Under the pieces are notes generated by a model. It was not told the DNA's origin. It worked only from the letters and a program-made list of their open reading frames with translations, and made no database searches. A DNA stretch of 64,000 bases from Minisyncoccota bacterium (GTDB taxonomy: Bacteria; Patescibacteriota; Minisyncoccia; Phycocordibacterales; JABAAK01), in the NCBI GenBank assembly GCA_965216295.1, contig OZ244141.1, positions 295,671 through 359,670 on the forward strand, read 5' to 3'. Shown here one piece after another: positions 1,668 to 54,100 of this stretch. Numbering within the stretch: position 1 is the stretch's first letter; the number at the start of each line of letters is the position of its first letter. Both the position numbers and the translations under genes were made by a program.

Positions 1668-2036
1668 ATGGGTAAATATACAGCAGTCCTTCTTATTATT
1701 ACTGTCATTCTTTTGATACTTTACTTTTTTGGTAATAATGGTAATAAAAGAGATGCTCTTGCTAATACCACTCCGCCATCAGAAGTAACAAAGCTTGGTG
1801 CTTGTGCTATAACAGGATGTAATAGTCATTTGTGTGTAGAGAAAGATCAGGCTAATGATATTGTTACAACGTGTGAATTTCTCCCTGTCTATGCTTGTTA
1901 TCAAAATGTTGGTGTGTGTGAGTGGCAGATTGATGACAATGCCTGTGGTTGGACACAGACGGATGAATTGAAACAGTGTATCGTAGAGGTAGAAAAAGAA
2001 GACGCTCTTAATCGTTCTGTTTACGAGGCTATATAG
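1668..2036 (+). CDS. small N-terminally membrane-anchored cysteine-rich protein, hypothetical
   Basis: 122-aa ORF with an N-terminal hydrophobic anchor (AVLLIITVILLILYFF) followed by a soluble part with 9 Cys. No recognisable family. Its stop codon abuts tRNA-Glu. Confidence 0.45.
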   Translation: MGKYTAVLLIITVILLILYFFGNNGNKRDALANTTPPSEVTKLGACAITGCNSHLCVEKDQANDIVTTCEFLPVYACYQNVGVCEWQIDDNACGWTQTDELKQCIVEVEKEDALNRSVYEAI

Positions 2037-2107
2037 GCCCCATCGTCTAGCGGCTAGGACGTAGCCCTCTCACGGCTGAAACCGGGGTTCGATTCCCCGT
2101 GGGGTCA
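2036..2107 (+). tRNA. tRNA-Glu (anticodon CTC)
   Basis: 72-nt cloverleaf read by eye. Acceptor GGCCCCA/TGGGGTC, T-arm GGGGTTCGATTCCCC, anticodon stem TAGCC/GGCTG with loop CTCTCAC, so anticodon CUC. No encoded CCA. Confidence 0.85.
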
Positions 2108-2164
2108 CATACAGATAATTATTTACATCAATAAATTTAAGGTTGAGTTTTTTATACATAACAC

Positions 2165-2190
2165 AGCTTATATTTTTTAAAATATAAGCT
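2165..2190. promoter_or_regulatory. perfect palindrome AGCTTATATTTT-tt-AAAATATAAGCT (12-bp arms) about 15 bp upstream of the methyltransferase start; candidate operator
   Basis: The inverted repeat was read directly. It lies between tRNA-Glu and the ATG at 2205. Confidence 0.4.
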
Positions 2191-2204
2191 ATACTTAACT
2201 TAAT

Positions 2205-3296
2205 ATGAGTAACACAAGGTGGAGCAGGATACCAAAAAATATAAGAAAAAATGTTCATGGAATGTGTAGCTATCTAGCGATGTTTCCACCAAATATTCCA
2301 AACTATTTTATTAAAAAATATACAAAAGAAGGTGATGTTGTTTTAGATCCATTTTCCGGAAGAGGTACTACTATCACAGAGGCTTCCTATCTCAACAGAA
2401 AGGCAATAGGTTCAGATTTAAACCCATTAGCAATAGTTTTATCTCGTGCCAAAGTTAGTGTCCCATCAAGAAATTCTATAATTAGAAGAATAAAAAAAAT
2501 TGAAACAGATTTTAAAAAATCAAAAAAAAATAGTATCATCAATCAAGAAAAAAATATAAAGATGATTTTTAATCCTAGTACACTAAGAGAATTAGTTTTT
2601 CTTCAAGATAATTTAAATTGGAAAAAAAATAGAATTGATAATTACATAACTGCAATGATTCTAGGGATTTTACACGGCGGATCAAAAAATTATCTATCAA
2701 TTCAAATGCCTAATACTTTTTCAATGTCTCCAAACTACATCAAAAGTTATATAAAAAAAGAAGGATTGAAAAAAGAATATAGAAATGTATTTAAATGTCT
2801 TCGTAAAAAATTTGAGAATTGTTATGATAAACCAAATATTGCAGGGAATGTATTTAAACAGAATGCATTAAAGATGAATAAGGTGAAAAAAAATAGCGTA
2901 AATTTGATAATCACATCACCACCATATTTAGACGTAATTAAATACGGACAATATAATTGGATAAGGCTTTGGTTTATAAAAGAGGGTGCGAGAAAGATAG
3001 ATCAAACACTATTTACATCTCAATCTCTAAATAAGTATGTTAATTTTATGAAAGATTTTTTAAACCAATCAAAAAAAGTACTAAAAAGAAACGGAAAAAT
3101 TATACTAATAATAGGTGATGTTAGAGGTTTAAATCTTGCGAAAAAAGTTTGGGAAAATAGCGCGGAACCACTCGGTTATGTAAAAGAATATTTGTTAAAG
3201 GATGAAATTGATGAAAACACAAAAACTACAAAAATATGGAATGAAAGAAAGGGAAAAGCTACGAAAATTGATAGAGTTCTTATTTTGTCAAACTAG
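2205..3296 (+). CDS. DNA amino-methyltransferase (N4-cytosine or N6-adenine), motif I then motif IV order
   Basis: 363 aa. Motif I-like VVLDPFSGRGTTITEA lies near the N-terminus and motif IV LIITSPPYLD about 190 aa later, with a putative target-recognition region between. Very AT-rich coding sequence. The 3' end overlaps the convergent GHKL gene by 9 nt. Confidence 0.75.
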   Translation: MSNTRWSRIPKNIRKNVHGMCSYLAMFPPNIPNYFIKKYTKEGDVVLDPFSGRGTTITEASYLNRKAIGSDLNPLAIVLSRAKVSVPSRNSIIRRIKKIETDFKKSKKNSIINQEKNIKMIFNPSTLRELVFLQDNLNWKKNRIDNYITAMILGILHGGSKNYLSIQMPNTFSMSPNYIKSYIKKEGLKKEYRNVFKCLRKKFENCYDKPNIAGNVFKQNALKMNKVKKNSVNLIITSPPYLDVIKYGQYNWIRLWFIKEGARKIDQTLFTSQSLNKYVNFMKDFLNQSKKVLKRNGKIILIIGDVRGLNLAKKVWENSAEPLGYVKEYLLKDEIDENTKTTKIWNERKGKATKIDRVLILSN

Positions 3297-5522
3297 CTTA
3301 TGAAAAATTAATAATTGTAATATTGTACTACTGGCGACAGAAAGCGCCTCATTTTTAAATTCATTGATTGTAGATTCATCTGCAGATTCACCTTTGTCAC
3401 CAACAAAAAGAGAATCAAGATTTTTTGAATGTTCTAAATTAAAACAGGAGTATGCAAGAAATATAGAATAGTGACTTTTCATCTTTTCAATATTTTTTAT
3501 TTTATTCTTTTTTATAAAAGATTGATAATATTTATTAGAGAGATTTATGAAAATTATAATATTATTTTTTGTTTCTTCATATTTTGCAAAATCTTTCTCA
3601 TTGTTAAAAACCCTTTTCCATATTTCGTAAGTTTTTTTATCATCTTTTGATACAGATTTAATTTCAGGAGAACCACGTAAATTTTTTTTATTACCAGAAT
3701 TCTCCTCAATAATAAATATCACCCTCCCTTCACTTATTAAATCTTTTTTATGCGAATTTAACAAAACATGAACTTTAAAATTTTTACCTATTTTTGCAAC
3801 ATTACTTAGAGCACATCTAATTCTGCTTCTACCGCCAAAGAAATTATCTATTTGTATAGAATCTTTTTTAATATATTTTTTACTTTCGTCAATTAATTTG
3901 AGTTGATAGTATTTTGAGGTCTCATTTGATAAATCAGATTCAATATTTAAAGTTAATATTTTACCTATTTTTGCATTTATAGGAGGTTGGTTTGTTATTT
4001 TTATATATGTAGGAAAATCTTTTGTTTCAATTATTTTTTTCTTTCCACCATCACCCGATCCATTACCACCCGATCCACCATCACCTTCAGTTTTTTCATC
4101 ACCCGAAATACTTATTTGTCCAACAAGTAAATTATTTTTTAACATTTTTGCTAAAATTTCTTGCATTTTTTCAGATCCCTTTTGCATACCTTTTGCTGCT
4201 TCTTCAGAATATTTTCTACTTTGTTCATCCAACAGGATAGGGTCATCAGAGATAAACTTAACTATCTCTTCTTTAATTTTCTGCCTAGATTCATTCGTTA
4301 ATCTTTGTCTATCTGTAATAAATGTCTTTTTTTTGCTTTCATTAGAAATTTTATTGCAGTTAACTTCTATAATTAAATTTTCTTTTAATTGTGGGAGTTT
4401 TGCATTTTCTTCAATTAGGCGTCTTGAAAATTTTCCATGTACTTGTCCATTGAATGTTACTAAAATGGGATTTTTACAATCATGTAAAAAACGATTTACC
4501 TTTTGACTTTCACCATTTTTATCATCCTTTAGATAATAGTATGTCAAAACTATTTCCTCCCCATCATTAAAATATTGAGATACTGTAGTTTTATTAAGTA
4601 TTTTATTTTCTTCAACATTATTTATCAACCTTCTTTTTAAACCTTGCATGTTTTTTACATTCCATTGCTCTGGTTTATCTTTTTTGTCTCTATTAAAATA
4701 CCCTATTTTATATGCAAATGCAGGGTTGAAAAGTATTTCATCACAGACCTTATAAAACTCACGTCCAATTATATTTTTTTCAAATTCAATGTGAAAAACA
4801 AGAGTGCCAAAAAAATCCTTTTTAAATCCTTTGTTAATTTCAGAATTAAAAGTTTCCTTCATTTCATCAAAGGGAATTGTTATTGGTAAATCGTCTTCAG
4901 ATGAAACTAGGTATTCATATTTTCCCTGTTTTGCAAACTCATCATCATCTAAGGAATTAAATCGTATAATTGTAAATGAAAGATTTGTATCTTTAACTGA
5001 ACAAATTATCGTATATTTATTACCACCGCAAACCGTCGATCCACCTTGACCAAAAGACCCCATTGTATATTTTTTTCTAAATTTATTAGAGGCATTTAAA
5101 GATAATATAGTATTTGTCATTTCTTCATTTGTTAAACCCACACCATTGTCCCAAAACAAAAAATTAGTAAATTTTTTTGTTTTATGTATTTCCACAAAAA
5201 TGTCATCTTTATGTATTTCTTCATTTTTTTCTTTTAAAAAATTAATAACATCATAAGGGCTATTAAAATTTTCAAATTCTTTATATTTTTTTGCAAATTT
5301 TTCTATATATGCATCAATTGAATTTGTTATACGTTCTAGAAGTAAACCCACATCAGCATCAGCTGAATGTACTGTTGAATAGTTTGCCTCTCTGTCACCC
5401 AAATCTCTCCATTTCAGTTTATCGTCATCATTCAAAGATGACACTATTTGATCAACTTCAACAGTTTCTATATTTCTTTTTTGCAAAAAGGATTTTATAA
5501 TTTTTCTGATGTCATTTCTCAT
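3288..5522 (-). CDS. MORC/Hsp90-like GHKL ATPase with Gly-rich linker and uncharacterised roughly 250-aa C-terminal domain
   Basis: 744 aa. Bergerat-fold motifs are present: N-box ERITNSIDAY, G1 box WDNGVGLTNEEM, G2 box MGSFGQGGSTVCG. A GDGGSGGNGSGDGGKKK linker precedes a C-terminal region with no recognisable motifs. The start ATG overlaps the stop of the upstream 75-aa ORF (ATGA). Confidence 0.7.
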   Translation of the reverse strand: MRNDIRKIIKSFLQKRNIETVEVDQIVSSLNDDDKLKWRDLGDREANYSTVHSADADVGLLLERITNSIDAYIEKFAKKYKEFENFNSPYDVINFLKEKNEEIHKDDIFVEIHKTKKFTNFLFWDNGVGLTNEEMTNTILSLNASNKFRKKYTMGSFGQGGSTVCGGNKYTIICSVKDTNLSFTIIRFNSLDDDEFAKQGKYEYLVSSEDDLPITIPFDEMKETFNSEINKGFKKDFFGTLVFHIEFEKNIIGREFYKVCDEILFNPAFAYKIGYFNRDKKDKPEQWNVKNMQGLKRRLINNVEENKILNKTTVSQYFNDGEEIVLTYYYLKDDKNGESQKVNRFLHDCKNPILVTFNGQVHGKFSRRLIEENAKLPQLKENLIIEVNCNKISNESKKKTFITDRQRLTNESRQKIKEEIVKFISDDPILLDEQSRKYSEEAAKGMQKGSEKMQEILAKMLKNNLLVGQISISGDEKTEGDGGSGGNGSGDGGKKKIIETKDFPTYIKITNQPPINAKIGKILTLNIESDLSNETSKYYQLKLIDESKKYIKKDSIQIDNFFGGRSRIRCALSNVAKIGKNFKVHVLLNSHKKDLISEGRVIFIIEENSGNKKNLRGSPEIKSVSKDDKKTYEIWKRVFNNEKDFAKYEETKNNIIIFINLSNKYYQSFIKKNKIKNIEKMKSHYSIFLAYSCFNLEHSKNLDSLFVGDKGESADESTINEFKNEALSVASSTILQLLIFHKLV

Positions 5523-5746
5523 AATCTAAACTTTTTATTTCTTTTATAATGAAACTTACTTTTTATATTTTTTACCTCTATTTCTATTTCTTTAAATATT
5601 TTTTGAATTTCCGCTTCATTATATTCATATGCACTTCTGTTAGCGCAATTTCCAAGTATTTTTAGAGACTTAAGAACCATGTTAGTTCTATAGTTAGCTA
5701 ATCTTCTAAATCTATCCCTTTTTTCCTTTGGTTTATTATTTATCAT
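5519..5746 (-). CDS. small basic protein, hypothetical; translationally coupled to the GHKL ATPase
   Basis: 75-aa ORF, Lys/Arg-rich, ATG start. Its stop overlaps the GHKL start codon, and an AT-rich putative promoter region (TATATATAT) lies upstream. Confidence 0.45.
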   Translation of the reverse strand: MINNKPKEKRDRFRRLANYRTNMVLKSLKILGNCANRSAYEYNEAEIQKIFKEIEIEVKNIKSKFHYKRNKKFRL

Positions 5747-5876
5747 AAATACGTAGTGTATTTATATATATATCATATCCTTATGTTATTTGTCAATTAT
5801 AAGGTGTCTTAGTGTTTAATAAAGAAAATTTGTGATTGTAAATATGGAGAAAAGGTATCAAAAAATAAACAAAACT

Positions 5877-6686
5877 CTATTCCTCCAAAATATAGTAGGT
5901 GATAGAAGAATATGAGGTTATCTTATTCTCACCAACACTAATAGGCACATCAGCTACATCTAACGACGAGGATTCTAAACTAACAGATTTGGCACCGTAT
6001 TGTGAAGAGTTTCGATATGGAGAAGCACCACCACCACCTATATTCACACTCATTACCTTACCGAGACGTATACCCGTCTCTTTTGATACCTTTTTCGCTC
6101 TCTCCTTTGCATTTTTCACTGAAAGGACAAGAGCATCATCTTGCAATTCTCGCTGTTTTTCAGGATCAACCAAGAACTGAAGATTACTCACATTTTCAAC
6201 ACCTTTGTCGGAGATAGCAGAGAGGATACCTGCAGCAGCATCTAAATCTCGTATCGTTATCGCAGTAGTATGAGTTACTTCATATCCTTTAAATACTCGT
6301 TTGCGAGTACCTTTTTTAGCAAGTATTTCATACTCATACTTTGGATGTATAGAATAGGTGATTGTTTTAACATCTTCGTCATCAATCTTAGCCTTTTTAT
6401 CCAAATAATTATATATATCAGACACCTTCTCAGAAACCGCAACTCTTGCTTGAGAAACATCATCATTCAATTCTCGAACAGTGAAACTCAACTGTGCTAT
6501 GTCTGGGATAGCGAGTACTTCTCCGTATCCAGTAAAGGTGAGCGTATCTCTCTCATTCAAATTAGCAACTCTATTTTCTCTGTATGTGTAGGATAAGACA
6601 GCAATAGAAATAACGACAAGTAAAACCGTAGCAGAAAGCATGAGTGCTATGAGAGCTTTGGTTTTTTTATCCATATCTGCGAACAT
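5877..6686 (-). CDS. SIMPL-domain (DUF541, YggE-like) periplasmic/membrane-anchored protein
   Basis: 269 aa with an N-terminal TM anchor. The C-terminal region shows the SIMPL-like pattern (ALVLSVKNAKERAKKVSKETGIRLGKVMSVN). Confidence 0.6.
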   Translation of the reverse strand: MFADMDKKTKALIALMLSATVLLVVISIAVLSYTYRENRVANLNERDTLTFTGYGEVLAIPDIAQLSFTVRELNDDVSQARVAVSEKVSDIYNYLDKKAKIDDEDVKTITYSIHPKYEYEILAKKGTRKRVFKGYEVTHTTAITIRDLDAAAGILSAISDKGVENVSNLQFLVDPEKQRELQDDALVLSVKNAKERAKKVSKETGIRLGKVMSVNIGGGGASPYRNSSQYGAKSVSLESSSLDVADVPISVGENKITSYSSITYYILEE

Positions 6687-49334: not shown

Positions 49335-49742
49335 ATGAAACAAAAGGTACGGAAAAGTAAGTATGACGTACGGATTGGTCGCTCTGCGAGTGGGCAGGGT
49401 CTATTTACAAAAGCACCTATTCGAAAAGGGGACTTTGTGATTGAATACCATGGACCTATTATTTCACGTGAACGGGCAGATGCGATGGGAGGGCGGTATC
49501 TCTTTGAAGTGAGTGAACGGAAGGTTATCAATGGTTCGGTGAGGTACAACCTAGCACGCTATATCAATCATTCCTGTCGTCCAAACTGTGAGACTGATGT
49601 GGTGCGTGGGAAGGTGTATATCTATGCGAGACGCAATATTCGTATGGATGAGGAGTTACACTACGATTACGGTAAAGAGTACTTTGAAGAGTTTATTGAG
49701 CCTGCTGGGTGTCAGTGTGAGAAGTGTGCGGGTCGTCGGTAA
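49335..49742 (+). CDS. SET-domain protein (putative protein lysine methyltransferase)
   Basis: 135 aa with RYINHSCRPNCE (the NHSCxPN motif), DEELHYDYG (the ELxxDY motif), and a Cys-rich post-SET CQCEKCAG. Starts 3 nt after the smc stop. Confidence 0.75.
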   Translation: MKQKVRKSKYDVRIGRSASGQGLFTKAPIRKGDFVIEYHGPIISRERADAMGGRYLFEVSERKVINGSVRYNLARYINHSCRPNCETDVVRGKVYIYARRNIRMDEELHYDYGKEYFEEFIEPAGCQCEKCAGRR

Positions 49743-51132
49743 GGAGGTCTGTTTTATAAATTTCTTTTTGTGTTACATATTCTTTGAAAACTTTAAAAAA
49801 ACTTTTTGCCATCTGTTCGTAATAATTTTTGTCATATAAATTTTCATATTCATATTCTTTAGGAAAAGATTCACAGTATTCTCTAGACAAGACATCTTCT
49901 TGTTTTTTTAGTACAGAATCGTTTGATTGATTTTTTTGAAGTTGAAAGGTTTCATGCAACATGTAAGCACCGATATTTTCTAAATTGTGTATAGCATAAA
50001 AATTTTTATGACAAAGCACTGTTTTTTCTATTAAATATTTTTCTGCTGAATCAATAGCAGCAAGGAATTTTTCTTTATCATTATTAAAGATATGCAATAA
50101 AATTTCCATCATGAGATCAATGTTTGTTTTATTTGTTGCTTCTTGTGTGTTATGTTGCAAGACGTTAAGACTGAATGAAGGAAATTTTTGAAGTGTAAAA
50201 AGGTTTCTTAGATTTATTACTTTCATAGGAATAGCAGATTTTACAAAAAGAGCAATTATAAATTGAACTTCGTCATTCAATGGCTGTGGCGTTTGATTCA
50301 TTATTTCGGTATTACAATGTCCTAATACTATCTCTTGAAGTTTATTTAATACTTCTTTTTCTATATTGTATTGATATGGTTCTTTGGAGAAAAATTTATT
50401 TATATATCCATTAAAATCAGTTTCATTTCCATATATATGATGATAGACTTTTTCAAGATTATTAAAATCACCAACGAATATCACTCTATCAAAACCAAAT
50501 TTATTCTTTTCATCATCTTGCAAAGGAGAAAAGGCATTTAGTATTTTAAACGCATGTTTTGGTTCAAGGCGATCTAAATCATCTAATATCAAAATGTTTT
50601 CTTTAGCAAGATCCATTTTATCTTCTCTACCATCTTTTACTTCTTTCAATGCTTCAGAGATGAAATTTTCCAAACAACTATTATGTATTTTTTTTACAGT
50701 ACTTTGGACTTCTGAGTTTTCTCCATTTAAAAGTTTTTTAATGGTTTCAATAGTTTGTGATTTAATACCAACCAAAGATCCAAAACATTTTATTATAAGA
50801 TCTTTTGCATTTTTTAATTTTATTTTTCCATTTTCATCTTTTAAGAATTTATTAATGATAGGCTCGTGTTGCTCTGCTAGTTGTACAAATAAATCAGCTG
50901 CTATAACTTCTAGTATATCAACATCATTGTGTACTTGATATTTAACTGGGTATAAATGAAATGTATTATATTTTTCAGAATTAGCTCTAAAAAATTCATT
51001 TAAAAAGTATGTTTTTCCCATACCAAACGATGCACTAAAGAATATTCTTTTATTACTTTTTAATTCAATAAAAGTATTAAATCCCTCATTTTTAGTTTCT
51101 GTAGATATTATTGTTTTATCCATGTGTAGCAT
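49693..51132 (-). CDS. KAP-like P-loop NTPase, hypothetical
   Basis: 479 aa with Walker A FFSASFGMGKTYFL and Walker B ILILDDLDRL (the hhhhDDLDR type typical of KAP NTPases). The C-terminal 16 codons run through the left direct repeat into the antisense strand of the SET 3' end. Confidence 0.5.
   Translation of the reverse strand: MLHMDKTIISTETKNEGFNTFIELKSNKRIFFSASFGMGKTYFLNEFFRANSEKYNTFHLYPVKYQVHNDVDILEVIAADLFVQLAEQHEPIINKFLKDENGKIKLKNAKDLIIKCFGSLVGIKSQTIETIKKLLNGENSEVQSTVKKIHNSCLENFISEALKEVKDGREDKMDLAKENILILDDLDRLEPKHAFKILNAFSPLQDDEKNKFGFDRVIFVGDFNNLEKVYHHIYGNETDFNGYINKFFSKEPYQYNIEKEVLNKLQEIVLGHCNTEIMNQTPQPLNDEVQFIIALFVKSAIPMKVINLRNLFTLQKFPSFSLNVLQHNTQEATNKTNIDLMMEILLHIFNNDKEKFLAAIDSAEKYLIEKTVLCHKNFYAIHNLENIGAYMLHETFQLQKNQSNDSVLKKQEDVLSREYCESFPKEYEYENLYDKNYYEQMAKSFFKVFKEYVTQKEIYKTDLLTDDPHTSHTDTQQAQ
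49725..49741. repeat. direct repeat copy 1 (TGTGCGGGTCGTCGGTA) at the 3' end of the SET gene; att-like
   Basis: The identical 17-mer recurs at 52986..53002. Flanking similarity extends to about 22 bp with 2 mismatches. Confidence 0.85.
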
Positions 51133-51230
51133 TCTAACATATTAATGAAAAAATAAAATTATCATGAAGAAGGATAAAACTAAGGTTTTAAAACGTTACA
51201 AACAAATAGTTTGTAAAAATTTACTTAAGA

Positions 51231-52010
51231 TTGTATAATAAAAAGATGAACAAAAATAAAACTTTATTTTTCTCCAATCAATGGTTGAATTTTTCTAAAT
51301 TTATTTATGATGTTTTCTCAAAAACACTATTAATTGCGGCATTTATTACACTTATATATTTTCTATTTAAAGGATATTGGATAGAAGTCGGATTATTATT
51401 ATTATTTTCAATATTGATAGCACCAATTATTGAATTTCTGTTAGAAGAAATATTTCGTGTTACATTTTTTACTAAGAAAGAAAGGGTTCTTATGACTAAT
51501 TTTTCTAAGGATAATAACCTAAATGTTGATTCTGTAATGAGTCTTTATGCATCAGGAGCAAAAGACGACATGAAAACATTTTCTGAAAAAACTCAATTAT
51601 TTAAAATGCTATCTCCAGAAAAAAAAGGACTTTCGGCAGTGTTTGGTATTGCGCCTACGATGCTTATTAGTTTATTTGCATATGCAGGATTACTTAGTTA
51701 TTTTTCTACAGGGAATATATATAGTGGAATAGACATCAATTATTTAAACTACGCTTCAATATTGATATTATATCTTGCAGTCGATGTTAGAATTTTACTT
51801 GTTGAAATATATTTTTCCCGACAGCTTAGTGTAACTCCATATGAACAATTTATATTGCCTTTTAAAATAATTACAATACTGCTTTTATGTCTTTTTTTAT
51901 TTTTAAACATTAACTTATCTTATACATTAATATTCAGTGTCGGATTACCATTAATTTTTATATTTTCTATAATAATGTTTTATGGTATTGCGAAAAAGAA
52001 AGATTTGTAA
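51231..52010 (+). CDS. polytopic membrane protein, hypothetical
   Basis: 259 aa with several hydrophobic helices. AT-rich, inside the repeat-bounded segment. Confidence 0.45.
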   Translation: MYNKKMNKNKTLFFSNQWLNFSKFIYDVFSKTLLIAAFITLIYFLFKGYWIEVGLLLLFSILIAPIIEFLLEEIFRVTFFTKKERVLMTNFSKDNNLNVDSVMSLYASGAKDDMKTFSEKTQLFKMLSPEKKGLSAVFGIAPTMLISLFAYAGLLSYFSTGNIYSGIDINYLNYASILILYLAVDVRILLVEIYFSRQLSVTPYEQFILPFKIITILLLCLFLFLNINLSYTLIFSVGLPLIFIFSIIMFYGIAKKKDL

Positions 52011-52309
52011 GTAAGGGTGGAAAATTTATCAAGTGACGCACGGAAAACGAGAAAATCGTTTTTTAAAGTTTTATTCTGTATCTTTGTTGTTAAGTATTAT
52101 ATATTATTTTATATTTTTAACTACGAAGTAGTAGGGAAGAGCATCAAAGAAATTTTTTACTGTTTTTATTTTTGAAAGAGAATGAGGATATAGGTAGAAA
52201 ATCTTTACTAAACATAGTCAACATCGTATCACCTTTTTAATAATCAGTAAAAGGGTAATGAAAACAAATATTAAATCTGATACTAAAATAAGAAATGACA
52301 ATAATATTA

Positions 52310-52954
52310 TTATTTTTTATTTAAATATAAATCTCTTAAATATATGCCACCTATTTCAACAAATTCATTAGCAAAATCATACATTCCATTTTCATATGCG
52401 TAATTTTTCAGTAACACAATAACCTCACTATTACTTTGTATGAATTCTTTCATTGTTTTGAAAGAGCATTCCTGTATATCATATTTACTATCAAAATGTT
52501 GCCCTTCAAATTGTTTAAATAAGAAATCTTTTTCTTTCAATATCATTTTTTTAAGACCACTATTTTCTAATTTAGTTAACCCCAATTCTGTAAGAGCGGA
52601 AGGGGATTGTGATTTAACATTTATTGGAAACTTATCTTCTAAAACTCCTTGTGCTTTTATAATGCTACATCGTGAATCTTCAGGCAAAATACCGACATTT
52701 TTATTAGTTAATGCCTTACATATTAGTTTCAATGGGGAACTCAAATTTTCTCCCAATGATTGAAGATCTTTAGGTGTATCAAGTAATTTTTTAATTTTTT
52801 TCCCAACACCCGAAAAAAGACCTAAAACAATCCCCAAGGCAATTATCGTGGTAGATATGGTAGAAACAATATTAAGAATTTCTATCCAATTCATATTCAT
52901 AAGTATTATAACAAAATTAATAATATTTTGCAAAATCACTACTATTTCTATCAT
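52310..52954 (-). CDS. membrane-anchored hypothetical protein
   Basis: 214 aa. One or two N-terminal TM helices, then a soluble domain with no recognisable motifs. Confidence 0.4.
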   Translation of the reverse strand: MIEIVVILQNIINFVIILMNMNWIEILNIVSTISTTIIALGIVLGLFSGVGKKIKKLLDTPKDLQSLGENLSSPLKLICKALTNKNVGILPEDSRCSIIKAQGVLEDKFPINVKSQSPSALTELGLTKLENSGLKKMILKEKDFLFKQFEGQHFDSKYDIQECSFKTMKEFIQSNSEVIVLLKNYAYENGMYDFANEFVEIGGIYLRDLYLNKK

Positions 52955-52985
52955 ATCTGCAATATATCAATCAAAATACTATAAT

Positions 52986-53002
52986 TGTGCGGGTCGTCGG
53001 TA
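52986..53002. repeat. direct repeat copy 2 (TGTGCGGGTCGTCGGTA)
   Basis: Identical to 49725..49741. In-frame it reads C-A-G-R-R-stop, as does the SET gene end. Confidence 0.85.
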
Positions 53003-53072
53003 GGGATGAAAGTAAAAAATTATTAAAATCCACAAAAAGAAAAATAGAGAAGGAAATAGAAAACGCACAGCA

Positions 53073-53104
53073 GTAGAAAGAATCGAACTCTCGTTTCGTG
53101 CTTG
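53073..53104 (-). repeat. partial tRNA-Gly copy (T-arm to anticodon-stem segment), 29 of 32 identities to the tRNA-Gly gene at 54035..54066
   Basis: gtagaaagaatcgaactctcgtttcgtgcttg here versus gtagggagaatcgaactcccgtttcgtgcttg in the gene. Same orientation. Lacks the acceptor 3' end. Confidence 0.7.
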
Positions 53105-53152
53105 ATTTGTACACATTGATATTTTTAATATCATAAATTATAATAACTACAT

Positions 53153-53359
53153 ATGAATAACTACTTTGAAATGTATTTCAACAGGATGTTTAAGAAAAAA
53201 AATCTATTGAAAGTATGGTTTGATAGTGGTAGTTTTTGGAAAAAAGTTTTTGCTGTTATTGGGCTTTTTGCATGTTATACATCATATGTACTCTTTGCGC
53301 TCTTTATAGTCTATAAAGTATCATATTGGATATCAGTGTACATATATTCACGATATTAA
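53153..53359 (+). CDS. small membrane protein, hypothetical
   Basis: 68 aa with one TM (VFAVIGLFACYTSYVLFALFIV). AT-rich. Confidence 0.3.
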   Translation: MNNYFEMYFNRMFKKKNLLKVWFDSGSFWKKVFAVIGLFACYTSYVLFALFIVYKVSYWISVYIYSRY

Positions 53360-53443
53360 GGTGGAGCAAAATACGGAAAGTGTGTAGAGATTGATAGGGT
53401 AGTGAGAATATATTTTTAAAATAAAAATCTTATTTTATTTCAA

Positions 53444-53986
53444 TTATGGAAAAATATTGAAAAATACAAGAACCAAAAGTAGCGAAGGGGATAGTAAAAG
53501 AGAGGTAAATAGAAAGTCTTTACTCAACAAGGTGGTAAAAAAATTTGAATCTTTCGCGAGTGGTTCACCATATTTATTTTTATCTGCATCACCTTTTTTA
53601 AAACATAACCAAAGAATAAAAAGAATATATATTATACATGAACTTGAATAAATTAAACTAGTAAAAGGAACCTCTATTTCATGAAATCTATTTTCCTGAA
53701 TTATAGCCAGTGGCAATTCTAAGACGATATACATTGGTAAAAAGATTAATATCCACCAACCACTTGCATTAAAATCATGCAATCTTTTAACCATAAAGAT
53801 TGTTAAAATAAAAGCTATAATGAATACGAAAAAATAGTCTAAAAAATAGTCTAAAACACTAGGAGGTTGAAAAAATTGACGACCGTACAAGTTTAATAAA
53901 AAAGGAACAGAAAAAAATATCATTAAAGACATCCCGATCCCAAAAATATAAAATTTTCTATTTATTCTATCATTAATTTTTTCCAT
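53444..53986 (-). CDS. DUF805-family inner membrane protein
   Basis: 180 aa with the RLHDFNASGWWIL motif characteristic of DUF805 (YhaH-like) proteins, and multiple TM helices. Confidence 0.6.
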   Translation of the reverse strand: MEKINDRINRKFYIFGIGMSLMIFFSVPFLLNLYGRQFFQPPSVLDYFLDYFFVFIIAFILTIFMVKRLHDFNASGWWILIFLPMYIVLELPLAIIQENRFHEIEVPFTSLIYSSSCIIYILFILWLCFKKGDADKNKYGEPLAKDSNFFTTLLSKDFLFTSLLLSPSLLLVLVFFNIFP

Positions 53987-54026
53987 ATAACGTTATTACT
54001 ATTATACCTATCGTTTAATTTCTAAA

Positions 54027-54100
54027 TGGTGCGGGTAGGGAGAATCGAACTCCCGTTTCGTGCTTGGGAAGCACGCGTCATACCACTAAACTATACCCGC
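54027..54100 (-). tRNA. tRNA-Gly (anticodon CCC), CCA encoded
   Basis: Reverse complement gives GCGGGTA-TA-GTTTAGTGGTATGAC-G-CGTGC-TTCCCAA-GCACG-AAAC-GGGAGTTCGATTCTCCC-TACCCGC-A-CCA. Confidence 0.8.

What the first reader, a model, noticed from the sequence alone, without database searches (positions are those of the whole stretch)
49725..53002. 3.26-kb AT-rich insertion bounded by a perfect 17-bp direct repeat that reconstitutes the 3' end of the SET-domain gene; cargo is a KAP-like NTPase plus membrane proteins
TGTGCGGGTCGTCGGTA occurs at 49725..49741, covering the last codons and stop of the SET gene, and again at 52986..53002. About 22 bp match with 2 mismatches when the flanks are included. 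A GC-rich 17-mer recurring by chance inside a 64-kb AT-biased sequence is very unlikely. Both copies read C-A-G-R-R-stop in the SET frame. That matches site-specific integration into the 3' end of a protein gene with duplication of the target end (attL/attR). The enclosed segment is AT-rich and encodes a P-loop NTPase with Walker A GMGKT and a DDLDR-type Walker B (KAP-like), a polytopic membrane protein and a membrane-anchored protein. This resembles a small defence or abortive-infection cargo. No integrase is present, so this is either a decayed integrative element, a satellite mobilised in trans, or a cassette.
Basis: partly seen in the sequence, partly recalled or inferred. Interest (0 to 1): 0.75.

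Follow-up and report, generated by a model that had tools for sequence, protein, structure and literature searches.

The report
tRNA-Gly-anchored defence-cassette island beside SET
The 17-bp repeat is real, but it is a worn copy of a tRNA-Gly gene end that marks the joints of a 4.3-kb patchwork of recombinase-less, probably anti-phage gene cassettes wedged between tRNA-Gly and the SET gene of a tiny CPR bacterium, which makes it a fairly ordinary kind of genomic island.

Summary
TGTGCGGGTCGTCGGTA occurs exactly twice (49725-49741 and 52986-53002; none expected by chance). It encloses ~25% GC DNA in a ~41% GC genome, with a KAP-family NTPase, two membrane proteins and no recombinase.

- The foreign tract runs 1 kb further, to tRNA-Gly(CCC) at 54027-54100.
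- That extra 1 kb has its own repeat pair: the tRNA 3' half is copied at 53073-53104.
- A sister-strain contig (99% identical flank) carries different cassettes at this locus.
- In that strain a related KAP gene ends in ctcccTACCGACCCGCACCAtttagaa. This repeats the tRNA-Gly 3' end (ctcccTACCCGCACCAtttagaa) and bounds a 4.4-kb cassette missing from the window.
- On that strand the 17-mer reads TACCGACGACCCGCACA, the same core with a longer expansion.
- The 3.26-kb segment is itself a mosaic, with a truncated DUF805 gene end inside.

Best reading: a compound tRNA-Gly-anchored variable island of integrase-less cassettes joined at tRNA-derived att-like cores, not one element targeting SET. The most distal core overlaps SET's last five codons. 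The cargo is probably anti-phage. The recombination enzyme is unknown. This is a new member of a known kind, of moderate interest.

The parts
49335..49742 (+). SET-domain gene (135 aa). Its last conserved Cys codon, the 4-residue tail AGRR and the stop codon lie inside core copy 1.
   Evidence: Pfam SET E 4.3e-22. C131 is invariant and the tail after it is variable in 23 homologues. NusB-RNaseIII-SMC-SET synteny is conserved in L001-L003 and L006.
49725..49741 (.). att-like core copy 1 (the 17-mer). It is the distal boundary of the island. On the minus strand it reads TACCGACGACCCGCACA, at the 3' end of the KAP ORF.
   Evidence: D7, 24 nt at 92%. Homologous to the L104 KAP1-end core and to the tRNA-Gly 3' end.
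49693..51132 (-). Soluble KAP-family P-loop NTPase (479 aa). The ORF reads through the core into SET antisense. The folded protein ends near residue 459.
   Evidence: Pfam PF07693 at 29.2 bits (cutoff 20). PADLOC PDC-S20 E 9e-10 over 36-449. No TM segment. AF2 pLDDT 76, with residues 460-479 below 50. Best PDB folds are RdrA and BrxC. Homologues sit in defence neighbourhoods.
51231..52010 (+). Polytopic membrane protein (259 aa; the source calls it at 254 aa). Near-ORFan, antisense to KAP.
   Evidence: About 5-6 hydrophobic spans. Only one homologue (44% identity) in 1.8 billion representatives. That homologue lies in an accessory block with SocA_Panacea and without KAP.
52090..52218 (-). Scar: a truncated DUF805 3' end plus a promoter-like intergenic repeat shared with the sister strain's cassettes.
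   Evidence: 81-85% identical to L104 9749-9906, and also similar to L104 7779-7833.
52310..52954 (-). N-terminally membrane-anchored protein (214 aa ORF; the source calls it at 194 aa). ORFan.
   Evidence: The only database hit is itself. TM span(s) within residues 1-54. No Pfam or PADLOC match.
52986..53002 (.). att-like core copy 2 (the 17-mer). It is an internal joint between cassette A and the tRNA-proximal module. On the minus strand it is preceded by ttcatccc, which resembles the tRNA T-stem and acceptor region.
53003..53072 (.). 70-bp AT-rich spacer between core copy 2 and the tRNA-Gly half-copy.
   Evidence: No homology to L104.
53073..53104 (-). Pseudo-tRNA: a copy of the tRNA-Gly 3' half (anticodon loop to the start of the acceptor stem). 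It occupies the same position as the full-length decayed tRNA-Gly #2 of L104.
   Evidence: 29 of 32 identical to 54035-54066, with 0 expected by chance. Positional match to L104 7310-7382. Below detection by Rfam.
53153..53359 (+). 68-aa hydrophobic small ORF, 100% identical in the sister strain.
53444..53986 (-). DUF805 membrane protein (180 aa). It stands alone directly after tRNA-Gly here, but lies immediately downstream of KAP1 in the sister strain.
   Evidence: Pfam PF05656 E 3.5e-14. 98.3% aa and 98.4% nt identity to L104 6373-7310. The KAP->DUF805 pair occurs twice in L104.
54027..54100 (-). tRNA-Gly(CCC), the anchor of the island. Its 3' end faces the island.
   Evidence: ARAGORN. Rfam tRNA 68.2 bits. 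The GC step falls at about 54000.

Best explanation
The 17-bp repeat is one of several att-like joints in a compound, strain-variable genomic island of 4.3 kb (49742-54026). The island lies between the 3' end of tRNA-Gly(CCC) and the 3' end of SET.

The joints are all derivatives of the tRNA-Gly 3' end:
- the genuine tRNA end, TACC|CGCACCA;
- a 32-nt tRNA-half copy at 53073-53104;
- two copies of an expanded version, TACC-GACGACC-CGCACA, which is the 17-mer.

The cassettes between the joints encode no recombinase. The distal cassette (cassette A, 49742-52985) carries a soluble KAP-family NTPase whose ORF runs through the joint, plus two near-ORFan membrane proteins and the scar of an older KAP/DUF805 cassette. 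The tRNA-proximal module carries a DUF805 membrane protein and a 68-aa ORF.

Inferred mechanism:
- Cassettes were gained, lost and possibly moved by recombination at these tRNA-derived cores. The most likely agent is a site-specific (tyrosine-type) recombinase supplied in trans by another element or encoded elsewhere in the genome. This would resemble accretion of integrase-less, cis-mobilisable elements.
- SET is only the distal neighbour. Its variable tail overlaps the last core.
- The functional cargo is most likely anti-phage. The KAP NTPase would act as a nucleotide-dependent switch or sensor. Membrane proteins (DUF805 in the sister strain's operons) are its possible effector or partner.

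Shown: the repeats, their homology series, the strain polymorphism at the cores, the mosaic content and the KAP family assignment.

Inferred: the recombinase acting in trans, the direction of events and the defence function.
For: - Both repeat pairs are exact or near-exact, with none expected by chance.
- The low-GC tract spans both pairs and ends at tRNA-Gly.
- Sister strain L104 is 99.1% identical over 1977 nt of flank and 98.4% over the DUF805-sORF68 module. Between tRNA-Gly and DUF805 it has a 4421-bp block (MORN-like, RelA_SpoT, 94-aa and 64-aa ORFs, KAP1) that is absent from the window.
- That block is bounded by ctcccTACCCGCACCAtttagaa and ctcccTACCGACCCGCACCAtttagaa. This is a precise presence/absence polymorphism at a tRNA-derived core attached to a KAP 3' end.
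- The window's KAP 3' end is homologous to that junction (aaagaaatttataaaacagaYctccYTACCGAC...) and carries the 17-mer there.
- Homology between the two strains breaks again exactly at the pseudo-tRNA (53104 / L104 7310).
- KAP2 in L104 and all 7 KAP homologues read in other genomes lack the core, so it is not an intrinsic part of KAP genes.
- The read-through tail (residues 460-479) is predicted to be disordered.
- The segment contains a DUF805 3' scar and a shared promoter-like repeat.
- No recombinase is present in the window or in L104.
- Defence role: KAP matches PADLOC PDC-S20. Its homologues sit among R-M, GmrSD, Abi_alpha, SocA_Panacea, DUF4411/M78, reverse-transcriptase and AAA_15/21 genes in low-GC patches. 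KAP NTPases with C-terminal regions of unknown function were shown experimentally to be Walker-B-dependent antiphage proteins (PMC13552941).
- Distant relatives have normal-GC DNA and no island after SET.
Against: - No recombinase was found, so site-specific recombination is inferred only from junction anatomy.
- An empty site on the SET side was not observed, because L104 ends before SET and no other sister contig exists.
- The direction of the L104/window difference is unresolved. It could be a gain in L104 or a deletion in the window between 23-nt repeats. A deletion would need no integrase.
- The 17-mer differs from the tRNA end by a 7-nt expansion. Its tRNA ancestry therefore rests on the L104 intermediate and on position, not on direct identity.
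- The exact 17-mer finds only chance hits in unrelated GC-rich contigs from metagenomes and viromes. No free attP or second occupied site was seen.
- The defence function rests on homology and gene neighbourhood only. This KAP lacks the TM insert of classical KAPs. The KAP-DUF805 pairing is seen only in this species.
Confidence: 0.6

Rival explanations
1. A single 3.26-kb integrative element, decayed or mobilised in trans, inserted site-specifically into a native attB at the 3' end of the SET gene and duplicated the 17-bp target. The adjacent 1-kb tRNA-Gly module is an unrelated older insertion.
For: - The 17-bp direct repeat is perfect, and both copies complete the SET reading frame.
- There is a sharp GC step at 49742.
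- KAP lies at the edge of the segment, as expected for a gene next to attP.
- A Campbell-type insertion of cassette A at a core next to SET is fully compatible with the data, and could be the last step within the compound-island model.
Against: - The core is homologous to the tRNA-Gly-derived core at the sister strain's KAP1 end, and through it to the tRNA-Gly 3' end. The target was therefore a tRNA-like att relic and not a SET-specific sequence.
- The SET tail is variable in homologues and carries no independent sign of being native.
- The 70 bp beyond copy 2 is AT-rich island-type DNA followed by a tRNA-half copy, not host-type DNA.
- The segment is a mosaic.
- No cognate integrase or free attP was found.
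Confidence: 0.2
2. No site-specific recombination is involved. The locus is a hypervariable defence hotspot that turns over by homologous or short-homology recombination. Whole blocks would be exchanged through the conserved flanks (LOG/tRNA-Gly and SMC/SET) after DNA uptake. The short repeats would be by-products or substrates of slipped or illegitimate recombination between related KAP-DUF805 cassettes, for example deletion of the MORN-to-KAP1 block between 23-nt repeats.
For: - No recombinase is present in either strain's locus.
- The cassettes are related to each other: there are three KAP paralogues, two DUF805 types and a shared promoter-like repeat. These provide dispersed homology.
- The orphan DUF805 next to tRNA-Gly in the window is most simply explained by deletion of an upstream KAP.
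- The repeat in L104 extends 7 nt beyond the tRNA into the local trailer (tttagaa), which suggests the sequence was copied locally.
Against: - Three independent strain-level breakpoints all fall on tRNA-Gly-like sequences. Such precision is typical of att-site recombination.
- Repeats of 17-23 nt are short for RecA-dependent exchange.
- tRNA 3'-half duplication starting in the anticodon loop (53073-53104) is the classic footprint of integrase-mediated insertion. This last point is established knowledge and was not tested here.
Confidence: 0.18
3. The repeat is a chance recurrence or an assembly artefact.
For: None beyond the fact that the source is a metagenome-assembled contig (511,782 bp).
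Against: - No shuffle gave a match.
- The repeat sits exactly at a GC step and at a position homologous to a core in an independently assembled sister-strain contig.
- 17 nt is shorter than the usual assembly k-mers.
Confidence: 0.02

Closest known systems
tRNA-anchored genomic islands with tandem accretion of integrase-less, att-flanked elements (cis-mobilisable elements, CIMEs, and mobilisable islands that use an integrase supplied in trans). Comparison recalled from my own knowledge, not tested against a database.
   Same: - Lies at the 3' end of a tRNA gene and has foreign base composition.
- Successive modules are separated by partial copies of the tRNA end.
- No recombinase is encoded inside the modules.
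- Presence/absence differs between strains exactly at the repeats.
   Different: - No integrase-bearing partner element is seen in either strain.
- The cores carry 4-nt and 7-nt expansions relative to the tRNA end.
- The distal core overlaps the coding end of a housekeeping-type gene (SET), and the KAP ORF reads through it.
- The modules are very small (1-4 kb).
- The host is a CPR/Paceibacterota genome of about 0.5 Mb.
Defence islands and hotspots, including genomic islands enriched in defence genes in Patescibacteria (PMC12455944)
   Same: Low-GC accessory DNA carrying defence-type genes at a fixed chromosomal position, with different content in a sister strain. KAP homologues elsewhere are embedded among R-M, Abi and other defence genes.
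   Different: Here the joints between cassettes are recognisable tRNA-derived repeats. This is a level of structure not usually reported for defence hotspots.
KAP P-loop NTPase antiphage proteins (EF_KAP and relatives, PMC13552941; PifA of the F plasmid; PADLOC candidate PDC-S20)
   Same: - N-terminal KAP NTPase with Walker A GxxxxGKT and Walker B DDLDR.
- An all-helical C-terminal region of about 190 aa with no known domain.
- Full-length match to the PDC-S20 model.
   Different: - No transmembrane helix, either at the N-terminus or inserted in the NTPase domain.
- In the sister strain the gene is followed, in operon-like fashion, by a DUF805 membrane protein. That pairing is not described for known KAP defences.
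- No function was tested.
Integron cassette arrays
   Same: An array of promoter-poor, recombinase-less cassettes separated by short recombination-site-like repeats, with strain-specific cassette content.
   Different: - No IntI or attI is present.
- The cores have no hairpin potential (z-scores -0.25 to +0.95), so they are not attC-like.
- The cores derive from a tRNA end.

Membership tests
KAP family P-loop NTPase (Pfam PF07693) | Profile match above the curated gathering score | tested here: met
   29.2 bits against a cutoff of 20; E 6.9e-7; residues 33-286. Most homologues are also annotated PF07693.
KAP family P-loop NTPase (Pfam PF07693) | Walker A GxxxxGK[ST] and Walker B hhhhDDLDR | tested here: met
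   SFGMGKT at residues 35-41 and ILILDDLDR at 180-188. G37, G39, K40, T41, D184, D185 and R188 are invariant in 31 homologues.
KAP family P-loop NTPase (Pfam PF07693) | Two or four transmembrane helices inserted in the NTPase domain (the classical definition, recalled from Aravind et al. 2004) | tested here: not met
   A Kyte-Doolittle scan finds no hydrophobic span. The insert between Walker A and Walker B is modelled as soluble helices.
PADLOC defence candidate PDC-S20 | Near full-length match to the PDC-S20 model | tested here: inconclusive
   E 9e-10, 36.5 bits, residues 36-449 aligned to profile positions 42-446 of 450. There is no curated cutoff, and the candidate system itself has not been validated.
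Integrase-mediated tRNA-targeting integrative element / genomic island | Located at the 3' end of a tRNA gene, with a partial tRNA copy at the far boundary | tested here: met
   tRNA-Gly(CCC) at 54027-54100 with its 3' end facing the island. There is a 32-nt 3'-half copy at 53073-53104, and tRNA-end-derived cores at 52986-53002 and 49725-49741.
Integrase-mediated tRNA-targeting integrative element / genomic island | Encodes its own integrase or recombinase | tested here: not met
   No recombinase domain in any island ORF or in the other unassigned ORFs of the window. None among the called genes of L104.
Integrase-mediated tRNA-targeting integrative element / genomic island | Presence/absence polymorphism with precise junctions in related strains | tested here: met
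   This was met for a sibling cassette. The 4421-bp block ending in KAP1 is present in L104 and absent from the window, bounded by the tRNA end and its copy. It was not testable for the 17-mer-bounded cassette itself.
Integrase-mediated tRNA-targeting integrative element / genomic island | Excised circular form or attP junction detectable | not testable with these tools
   No reads are available. Scans for the exact 17-mer in metagenome and viral contigs gave only unrelated chance hits.
   No strain-level relative with the SET side is available. The tail after C131 is variable in homologues. The core is homologous to a tRNA-Gly-derived core, which argues against SET specificity.
Integron | IntI integrase, attI and hairpin-forming attC sites | tested here: not met
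   No integrase. The cores show no secondary-structure signal as ssDNA.
Transposon or casposon with target-site duplication | Terminal inverted repeats just inside the direct repeats, and a transposase or casposase | tested here: not met
   No inverted repeat is positioned symmetrically at the two ends (sequences). No transposase or Cas1.
DUF805 (PF05656) membrane protein | Profile match above the gathering score | tested here: met
   53.6 bits against a cutoff of 25.7 for 53444-53986(-). It has 4-5 hydrophobic spans.

The most novel reading that the evidence does not exclude
CPR bacteria of this lineage may maintain an integron-like cassette platform built on tRNA-Gly-derived att cores. Under this reading, small recombinase-less defence cassettes are excised, re-inserted and shuffled between cores by a single trans-acting recombinase encoded elsewhere. 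Such cassettes would typically be a soluble KAP NTPase whose ORF ends in the att core, paired with a DUF805 membrane effector. The soluble KAP plus DUF805 pair would be a new two-component anti-phage system, in which the membrane module of classical KAP proteins is supplied as a separate protein.
Probability: 0.15. Interest if true: 0.7.

Novelty: new member of a known kind. Interest (0 to 1): 0.4.

Why it matters
CPR/Patescibacteria have tiny genomes, mostly lack CRISPR, and are thought to rely on a few innate defences. How they gain and turn over such genes is poorly documented.

This locus gives a base-pair-resolved example. Two strains that are 99% identical in their flanks carry different sets of small KAP-NTPase cassettes at one tRNA-Gly, and the joints between cassettes are recognisable tRNA-end relics.

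It also nominates a soluble KAP NTPase, possibly working with a DUF805 membrane protein, as a defence candidate in a phylum where none has been tested.

The general phenomenon, a tRNA-anchored variable island of integrase-less cassettes, is well known in other bacteria. The value here is as a clean case and a source of testable candidates, not as a new principle.

Tried and rejected
- **Exact-protein look-ups of SET and KAP:** nothing on record.
- **SET relatives in GTDB genomes:** the closest are only 64-66% identical. Synteny upstream (NusB-RNaseIII-SMC-SET) is conserved, but downstream differs and there is no tRNA-Gly, so they are useless as empty sites.
- **Exact 17-mer scans:** 59 hits in metagenome contigs and 4 in viral contigs. 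All lie in unrelated, mostly GC-rich contigs with no flank or cargo similarity. The 17-mer is therefore not a common repeat, but no free attP was found either.
- **Cluster look-up:** only one sister-strain contig exists, and it lacks the SET side.
- **Phage databases:** no DNA or protein match to the island or to KAP, so a prophage or satellite origin has no support.
- **Rfam scan:** only the genuine tRNA-Gly is detected. The half-copy falls below threshold.
- **Terminator and promoter scans:** uninformative in this AT-rich DNA.
- **Split-operon idea:** I considered that the whole 4.3 kb is a single element whose attP lies between KAP and DUF805. I rejected it as the primary model. KAP2-DUF805-2 in L104 has no core between the two genes, and the window has internal cores, a tRNA half-copy and a DUF805 scar.
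- **MEM259 as a discrete insertion between a shared promoter repeat and KAP:** the window's KAP upstream region does not align with the region upstream of KAP2, so this is not supported.
- **Integron attC-like folding of the cores:** rejected.
- **tRNA-derived repeats at other islands:** none at the tRNA-Glu island, and none at the tRNA-Met-adjacent KAP islet of L106.
- **PDB sequence search with the KAP profile:** no hit.

Full report
**1. The observation**

The 17-mer TGTGCGGGTCGTCGGTA occurs exactly twice in the 64-kb window, at 49725-49741 and 52986-53002 on the + strand. No further site appears even with 2 mismatches, and no match appeared in 100 dinucleotide-preserving shuffles. With flanks, the repeat is 24 nt with two mismatches (D7).

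Both copies read Cys-Ala-Gly-Arg-Arg-stop in the frame of the SET gene at 49335-49742. SET matches Pfam with E 4.3e-22.

The enclosed DNA is 24-27% GC against 40-43% in the surrounding housekeeping genes. The cargo is as described:

| ORF | Description | Evidence |
|---|---|---|
| 49693-51132(-), 479 aa | P-loop protein above the Pfam KAP_NTPase gathering score, with Walker A GMGKT and Walker B DDLDR | |
| 51231-52010(+), 259 aa | about 5-6 hydrophobic spans | |
| 52310-52954(-), 214 aa | N-terminal membrane anchor | |

No recombinase is present.

**2.

The low-GC tract does not end at the second repeat copy. It continues for another kilobase and stops at about 54026, at a tRNA-Gly(CCC) gene on the minus strand (54027-54100) whose 3' end faces the island. 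ARAGORN and Rfam (68.2 bits) both find this tRNA.

This extra kilobase encodes a DUF805 membrane protein (53444-53986, minus strand; Pfam E 3.5e-14) and a 68-aa hydrophobic ORF.

It has its own boundary repeat. The 3' half of the tRNA, from the anticodon loop to the start of the acceptor stem, is copied at 53073-53104. The copy is 29 of 32 identical, with none expected by chance. It lies only 70 bp from the second 17-mer.

The foreign tract is therefore 4.3 kb (49742-54026), anchored on tRNA-Gly, and divided by internal repeats.

**3. A sister strain**

No identical or near-identical SET or SMC is on record. The best SET relatives are 64-66% identical, from Paceibacterota/Kaiserbacteria MAGs.

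Tracing the nearest KAP homologue (P0122, 49% identical) led to a 10.7-kb ENA contig, L104. It is a strain of the same species:
- L104 1-1977 is 99.1% identical in DNA to window 55993-54017, covering YbaK, L27, a 102-aa gene, LOG and tRNA-Gly.
- L104 6373-7310 is 98.4% identical to window 54042-53110, covering DUF805 and the 68-aa ORF.

The island content otherwise differs. In the direction of the tRNA, L104 reads as follows:
- tRNA-Gly #1
- MORN-like gene, RelA_SpoT-domain gene, 94-aa ORF, 64-aa ORF, KAP1
- DUF805 and the 68-aa ORF
- a decayed full-length tRNA-Gly #2
- 110-aa ORF, KAP2, DUF805-2, 230-aa ORF, then the end of the contig

KAP is thus followed immediately by DUF805 twice in that strain.

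**4. The joints**

On the tRNA strand the junction sequences form a series:

| Site | Sequence |
|---|---|
| tRNA-Gly 3' end and trailer (both strains) | gattctcccTACC-CGCACCA-tttagaa |
| End of L104 KAP1 | acagatctcccTACC-GACC-CGCACCA-tttagaa-actaaacg, then DUF805 |
| Window 17-mer copy 2 | ttcatcccTACC-GACGACC-CGCACA-attatag |
| Window 17-mer copy 1 (end of the window's KAP) | acagacctcctTACC-GACGACC-CGCACA-cttctcac, then SET antisense |

In the window, the tRNA-Gly trailer continues tttagaa-attaaacg into DUF805. This is exactly the sequence that follows the KAP1-end core in L104.

Relative to the window, L104 therefore has a 4421-bp block, ending in KAP1, between tRNA-Gly and DUF805. That block is bounded by a 23-nt direct repeat of the tRNA end plus trailer, with a 4-nt expansion in one copy. 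This is a genuine filled-versus-empty pair for a sibling of the window's KAP cassette.

The last ~45 nt of the window's KAP and of KAP1 are nearly identical, and both place the core at the same position. The 17-mer is therefore the same joint with a 7-nt rather than a 4-nt expansion.

The core is not part of KAP genes in general. KAP2 and all seven homologues inspected in other genomes end near ...YxEKE(I/V)YK with no such sequence. The 20 residues of the window's KAP that are encoded by the core and SET antisense are predicted to be disordered.

A third strain-level breakpoint lies exactly at the pseudo-tRNA. Identity between the strains falls from 98.4% to no detectable homology at window 53104 / L104 7310.

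**5. The 17-mer-bounded segment is a mosaic**

Window 52218-52090 (minus strand) is 81-85% identical to the last codons of L104 DUF805-2 (...LFSKDFL...) plus the intergenic promoter-like repeat that precedes both KAP2 and the 230-aa gene in L104. This is the scar of an older KAP/DUF805 cassette.

The 214-aa protein is an ORFan. The 259-aa protein has a single 44%-identical homologue among 1.8 billion representatives. That homologue lies in an unrelated accessory block, next to a SocA_Panacea gene and without KAP, in another CPR genome. Neither membrane gene is a conserved partner of KAP.

**6. SET**

The TGT that opens the 17-mer encodes Cys131, the last invariant residue of the post-SET CxCxxC cluster. 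The residues after it vary in length and sequence among 23 homologues. In distant syntenic relatives SET ends 2-3 residues after this Cys and is followed by DNA of normal GC content.

The AGRR tail cannot be shown to be native, and it cannot be shown to have come from a cassette. What can be said is that the distal att-like core overlaps SET's last five codons, and both junction variants preserve the essential Cys. The KAP ORF overlaps SET by 50 nt in antisense.

**7. Function of the cargo**

The KAP protein matches the PADLOC candidate PDC-S20 almost end to end (E 9e-10) and weakly matches PifA.

An AlphaFold model built on 31 homologues has pLDDT 76 and pTM 0.73. It shows an N-terminal P-loop domain and an all-helical C-terminal half. 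The best solved matches are the defence ATPases RdrA (RADAR) and BrxC (BREX), at low TM-scores of about 0.35. A profile search of PDB sequences found nothing.

Its closest homologues (38-49% identical) in other CPR genomes lie in low-GC patches among defence-type genes:
- restriction-modification genes and GmrSD
- Abi_alpha and SocA_Panacea
- DUF4411/M78 and DUF5677
- a reverse transcriptase and AAA_15/21 ATPases

One such patch lies directly after a tRNA-Met.

Unlike classical KAPs, this protein has no transmembrane segment. The repeated KAP->DUF805 arrangement in the sister strain suggests the membrane component may be supplied separately. That is an inference from two gene pairs in one species. 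No paper in the held library links KAP NTPases with DUF805; the one paper containing both terms is a Dickeya genomics study that I did not open.

The island has no similarity to known phages.

**8. Mechanism and rivals**

The best-supported reading is a compound tRNA-Gly-anchored island. Its integrase-less cassettes are joined at tRNA-end-derived cores and are gained and lost precisely at those cores.

The enzyme is unknown. A tyrosine-type recombinase acting in trans is the most likely agent. The reasons are that breakpoints coincide with tRNA-like sequences three times, and that a tRNA 3'-half duplication starting in the anticodon loop is the classic integrase footprint (established knowledge, not tested here).

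Rivals:
- **Short-homology recombination or deletion.** Exchange between the repeats, with block exchange through the conserved flanks, cannot be excluded. It would explain the orphan DUF805 without any integrase.
This survives only in a weakened form. Cassette A may have entered by a Campbell-type event at the core next to SET, but that core is a tRNA-like att relic and not a SET-specific site.
- **Integron-like attC structure.** The cores do not fold.
- **Transposon-type ends.** These are absent.
- **Chance or misassembly.** This is excluded for practical purposes.

**9. Comparison with known systems, and verdict**

The closest known category is the tRNA-anchored genomic or defence island built by accretion of att-flanked, integrase-less (cis-mobilisable) elements. 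Genomic islands enriched in defence genes have been reported in Patescibacteria (PMC12455944).

This instance is new in three respects: its host, its very small modules, and its cores that carry short expansions and overlap two coding ends.

The KAP protein meets the family's sequence criteria but lacks the classical TM insert. Its defence role is inferred. I rate the finding a new member of a known kind, with moderate interest (0.4).

The most novel reading still open is an integron-like cassette platform on tRNA-derived cores, combined with a new soluble-KAP plus DUF805 defence pair. I give it about 15% probability.

Noticed in passing
window 2036-5880: A second low-GC island (25-30% GC) begins directly after tRNA-Glu(CTC) at 2036-2108(+). 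It carries a type II N4/N6 DNA methyltransferase (2205-3296, +), a 744-aa GHKL/HATPase_c_3 protein (3288-5522, -) and a 75-aa ORF (5519-5746, -). It has no integrase and no tRNA-Glu-derived repeat at its far end. It may be an R-M-like or other defence module.
   Followed up: partly
L104 2121-4661: The sister strain's extra cassette encodes a RelA_SpoT-domain protein (343 aa), a MORN-like membrane-anchored protein (278 aa) and two small ORFs. This could be a toxic small-alarmone-synthetase (toxSAS-type) module sitting next to KAP1.
   Followed up: no
L104 9879-10704: A 230-aa protein with an N-terminal TM span and an OmpA/MotB-like C-terminus (judged by eye from the translation, not scanned against Pfam) is followed by a TM-rich ORF cut off by the contig end. 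This may be a MotAB/Zorya-like pair downstream of KAP2-DUF805-2.
   Followed up: no
L104 7310-7382: There is a second, full-length tRNA-Gly(CCC) copy, 93% identical to the real one, with a broken acceptor stem (5' ATAGGTA against 3' TACCCGC). It is a decayed displaced tRNA sitting where the window has only the 3' half.
   Followed up: partly
window 52090-52141(-); L104 7775-7833 and 9815-9870: A promoter-like repeat of about 55 nt (CTCTTCCCTAYTAC..GTAsTTAAAAATAyAAAATAAyATATAATA) recurs between cassette genes in both strains. It may be a cassette promoter or a recombination substrate.
   Followed up: partly
window 49693-49742: The KAP ORF and the SET ORF overlap convergently by 50 nt. KAP's last 16 codons are encoded by the core plus SET antisense and are predicted to be disordered.
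   Followed up: yes
L106 9844-11305: In a ~58% GC CPR genome, a KAP homologue forms a ~1.5-kb islet of ~35% GC immediately 3' of tRNA-Met. No tRNA-derived repeat of 11 nt or more was found.
   Followed up: partly
L114 4248-11219: The only homologue of the 259-aa membrane protein lies in an accessory block (with SocA_Panacea, a MORN-like gene and MurB) that interrupts the ribosomal-protein operon between L5 and S14 in another CPR genome (GCA_028817035.1).
   Followed up: no
window 4041-4085: Three tandem 15-nt units lie inside the 744-aa GHKL gene and encode a Gly/Ser/Asp-rich linker (GGSGGNGSGDGG).
   Followed up: no
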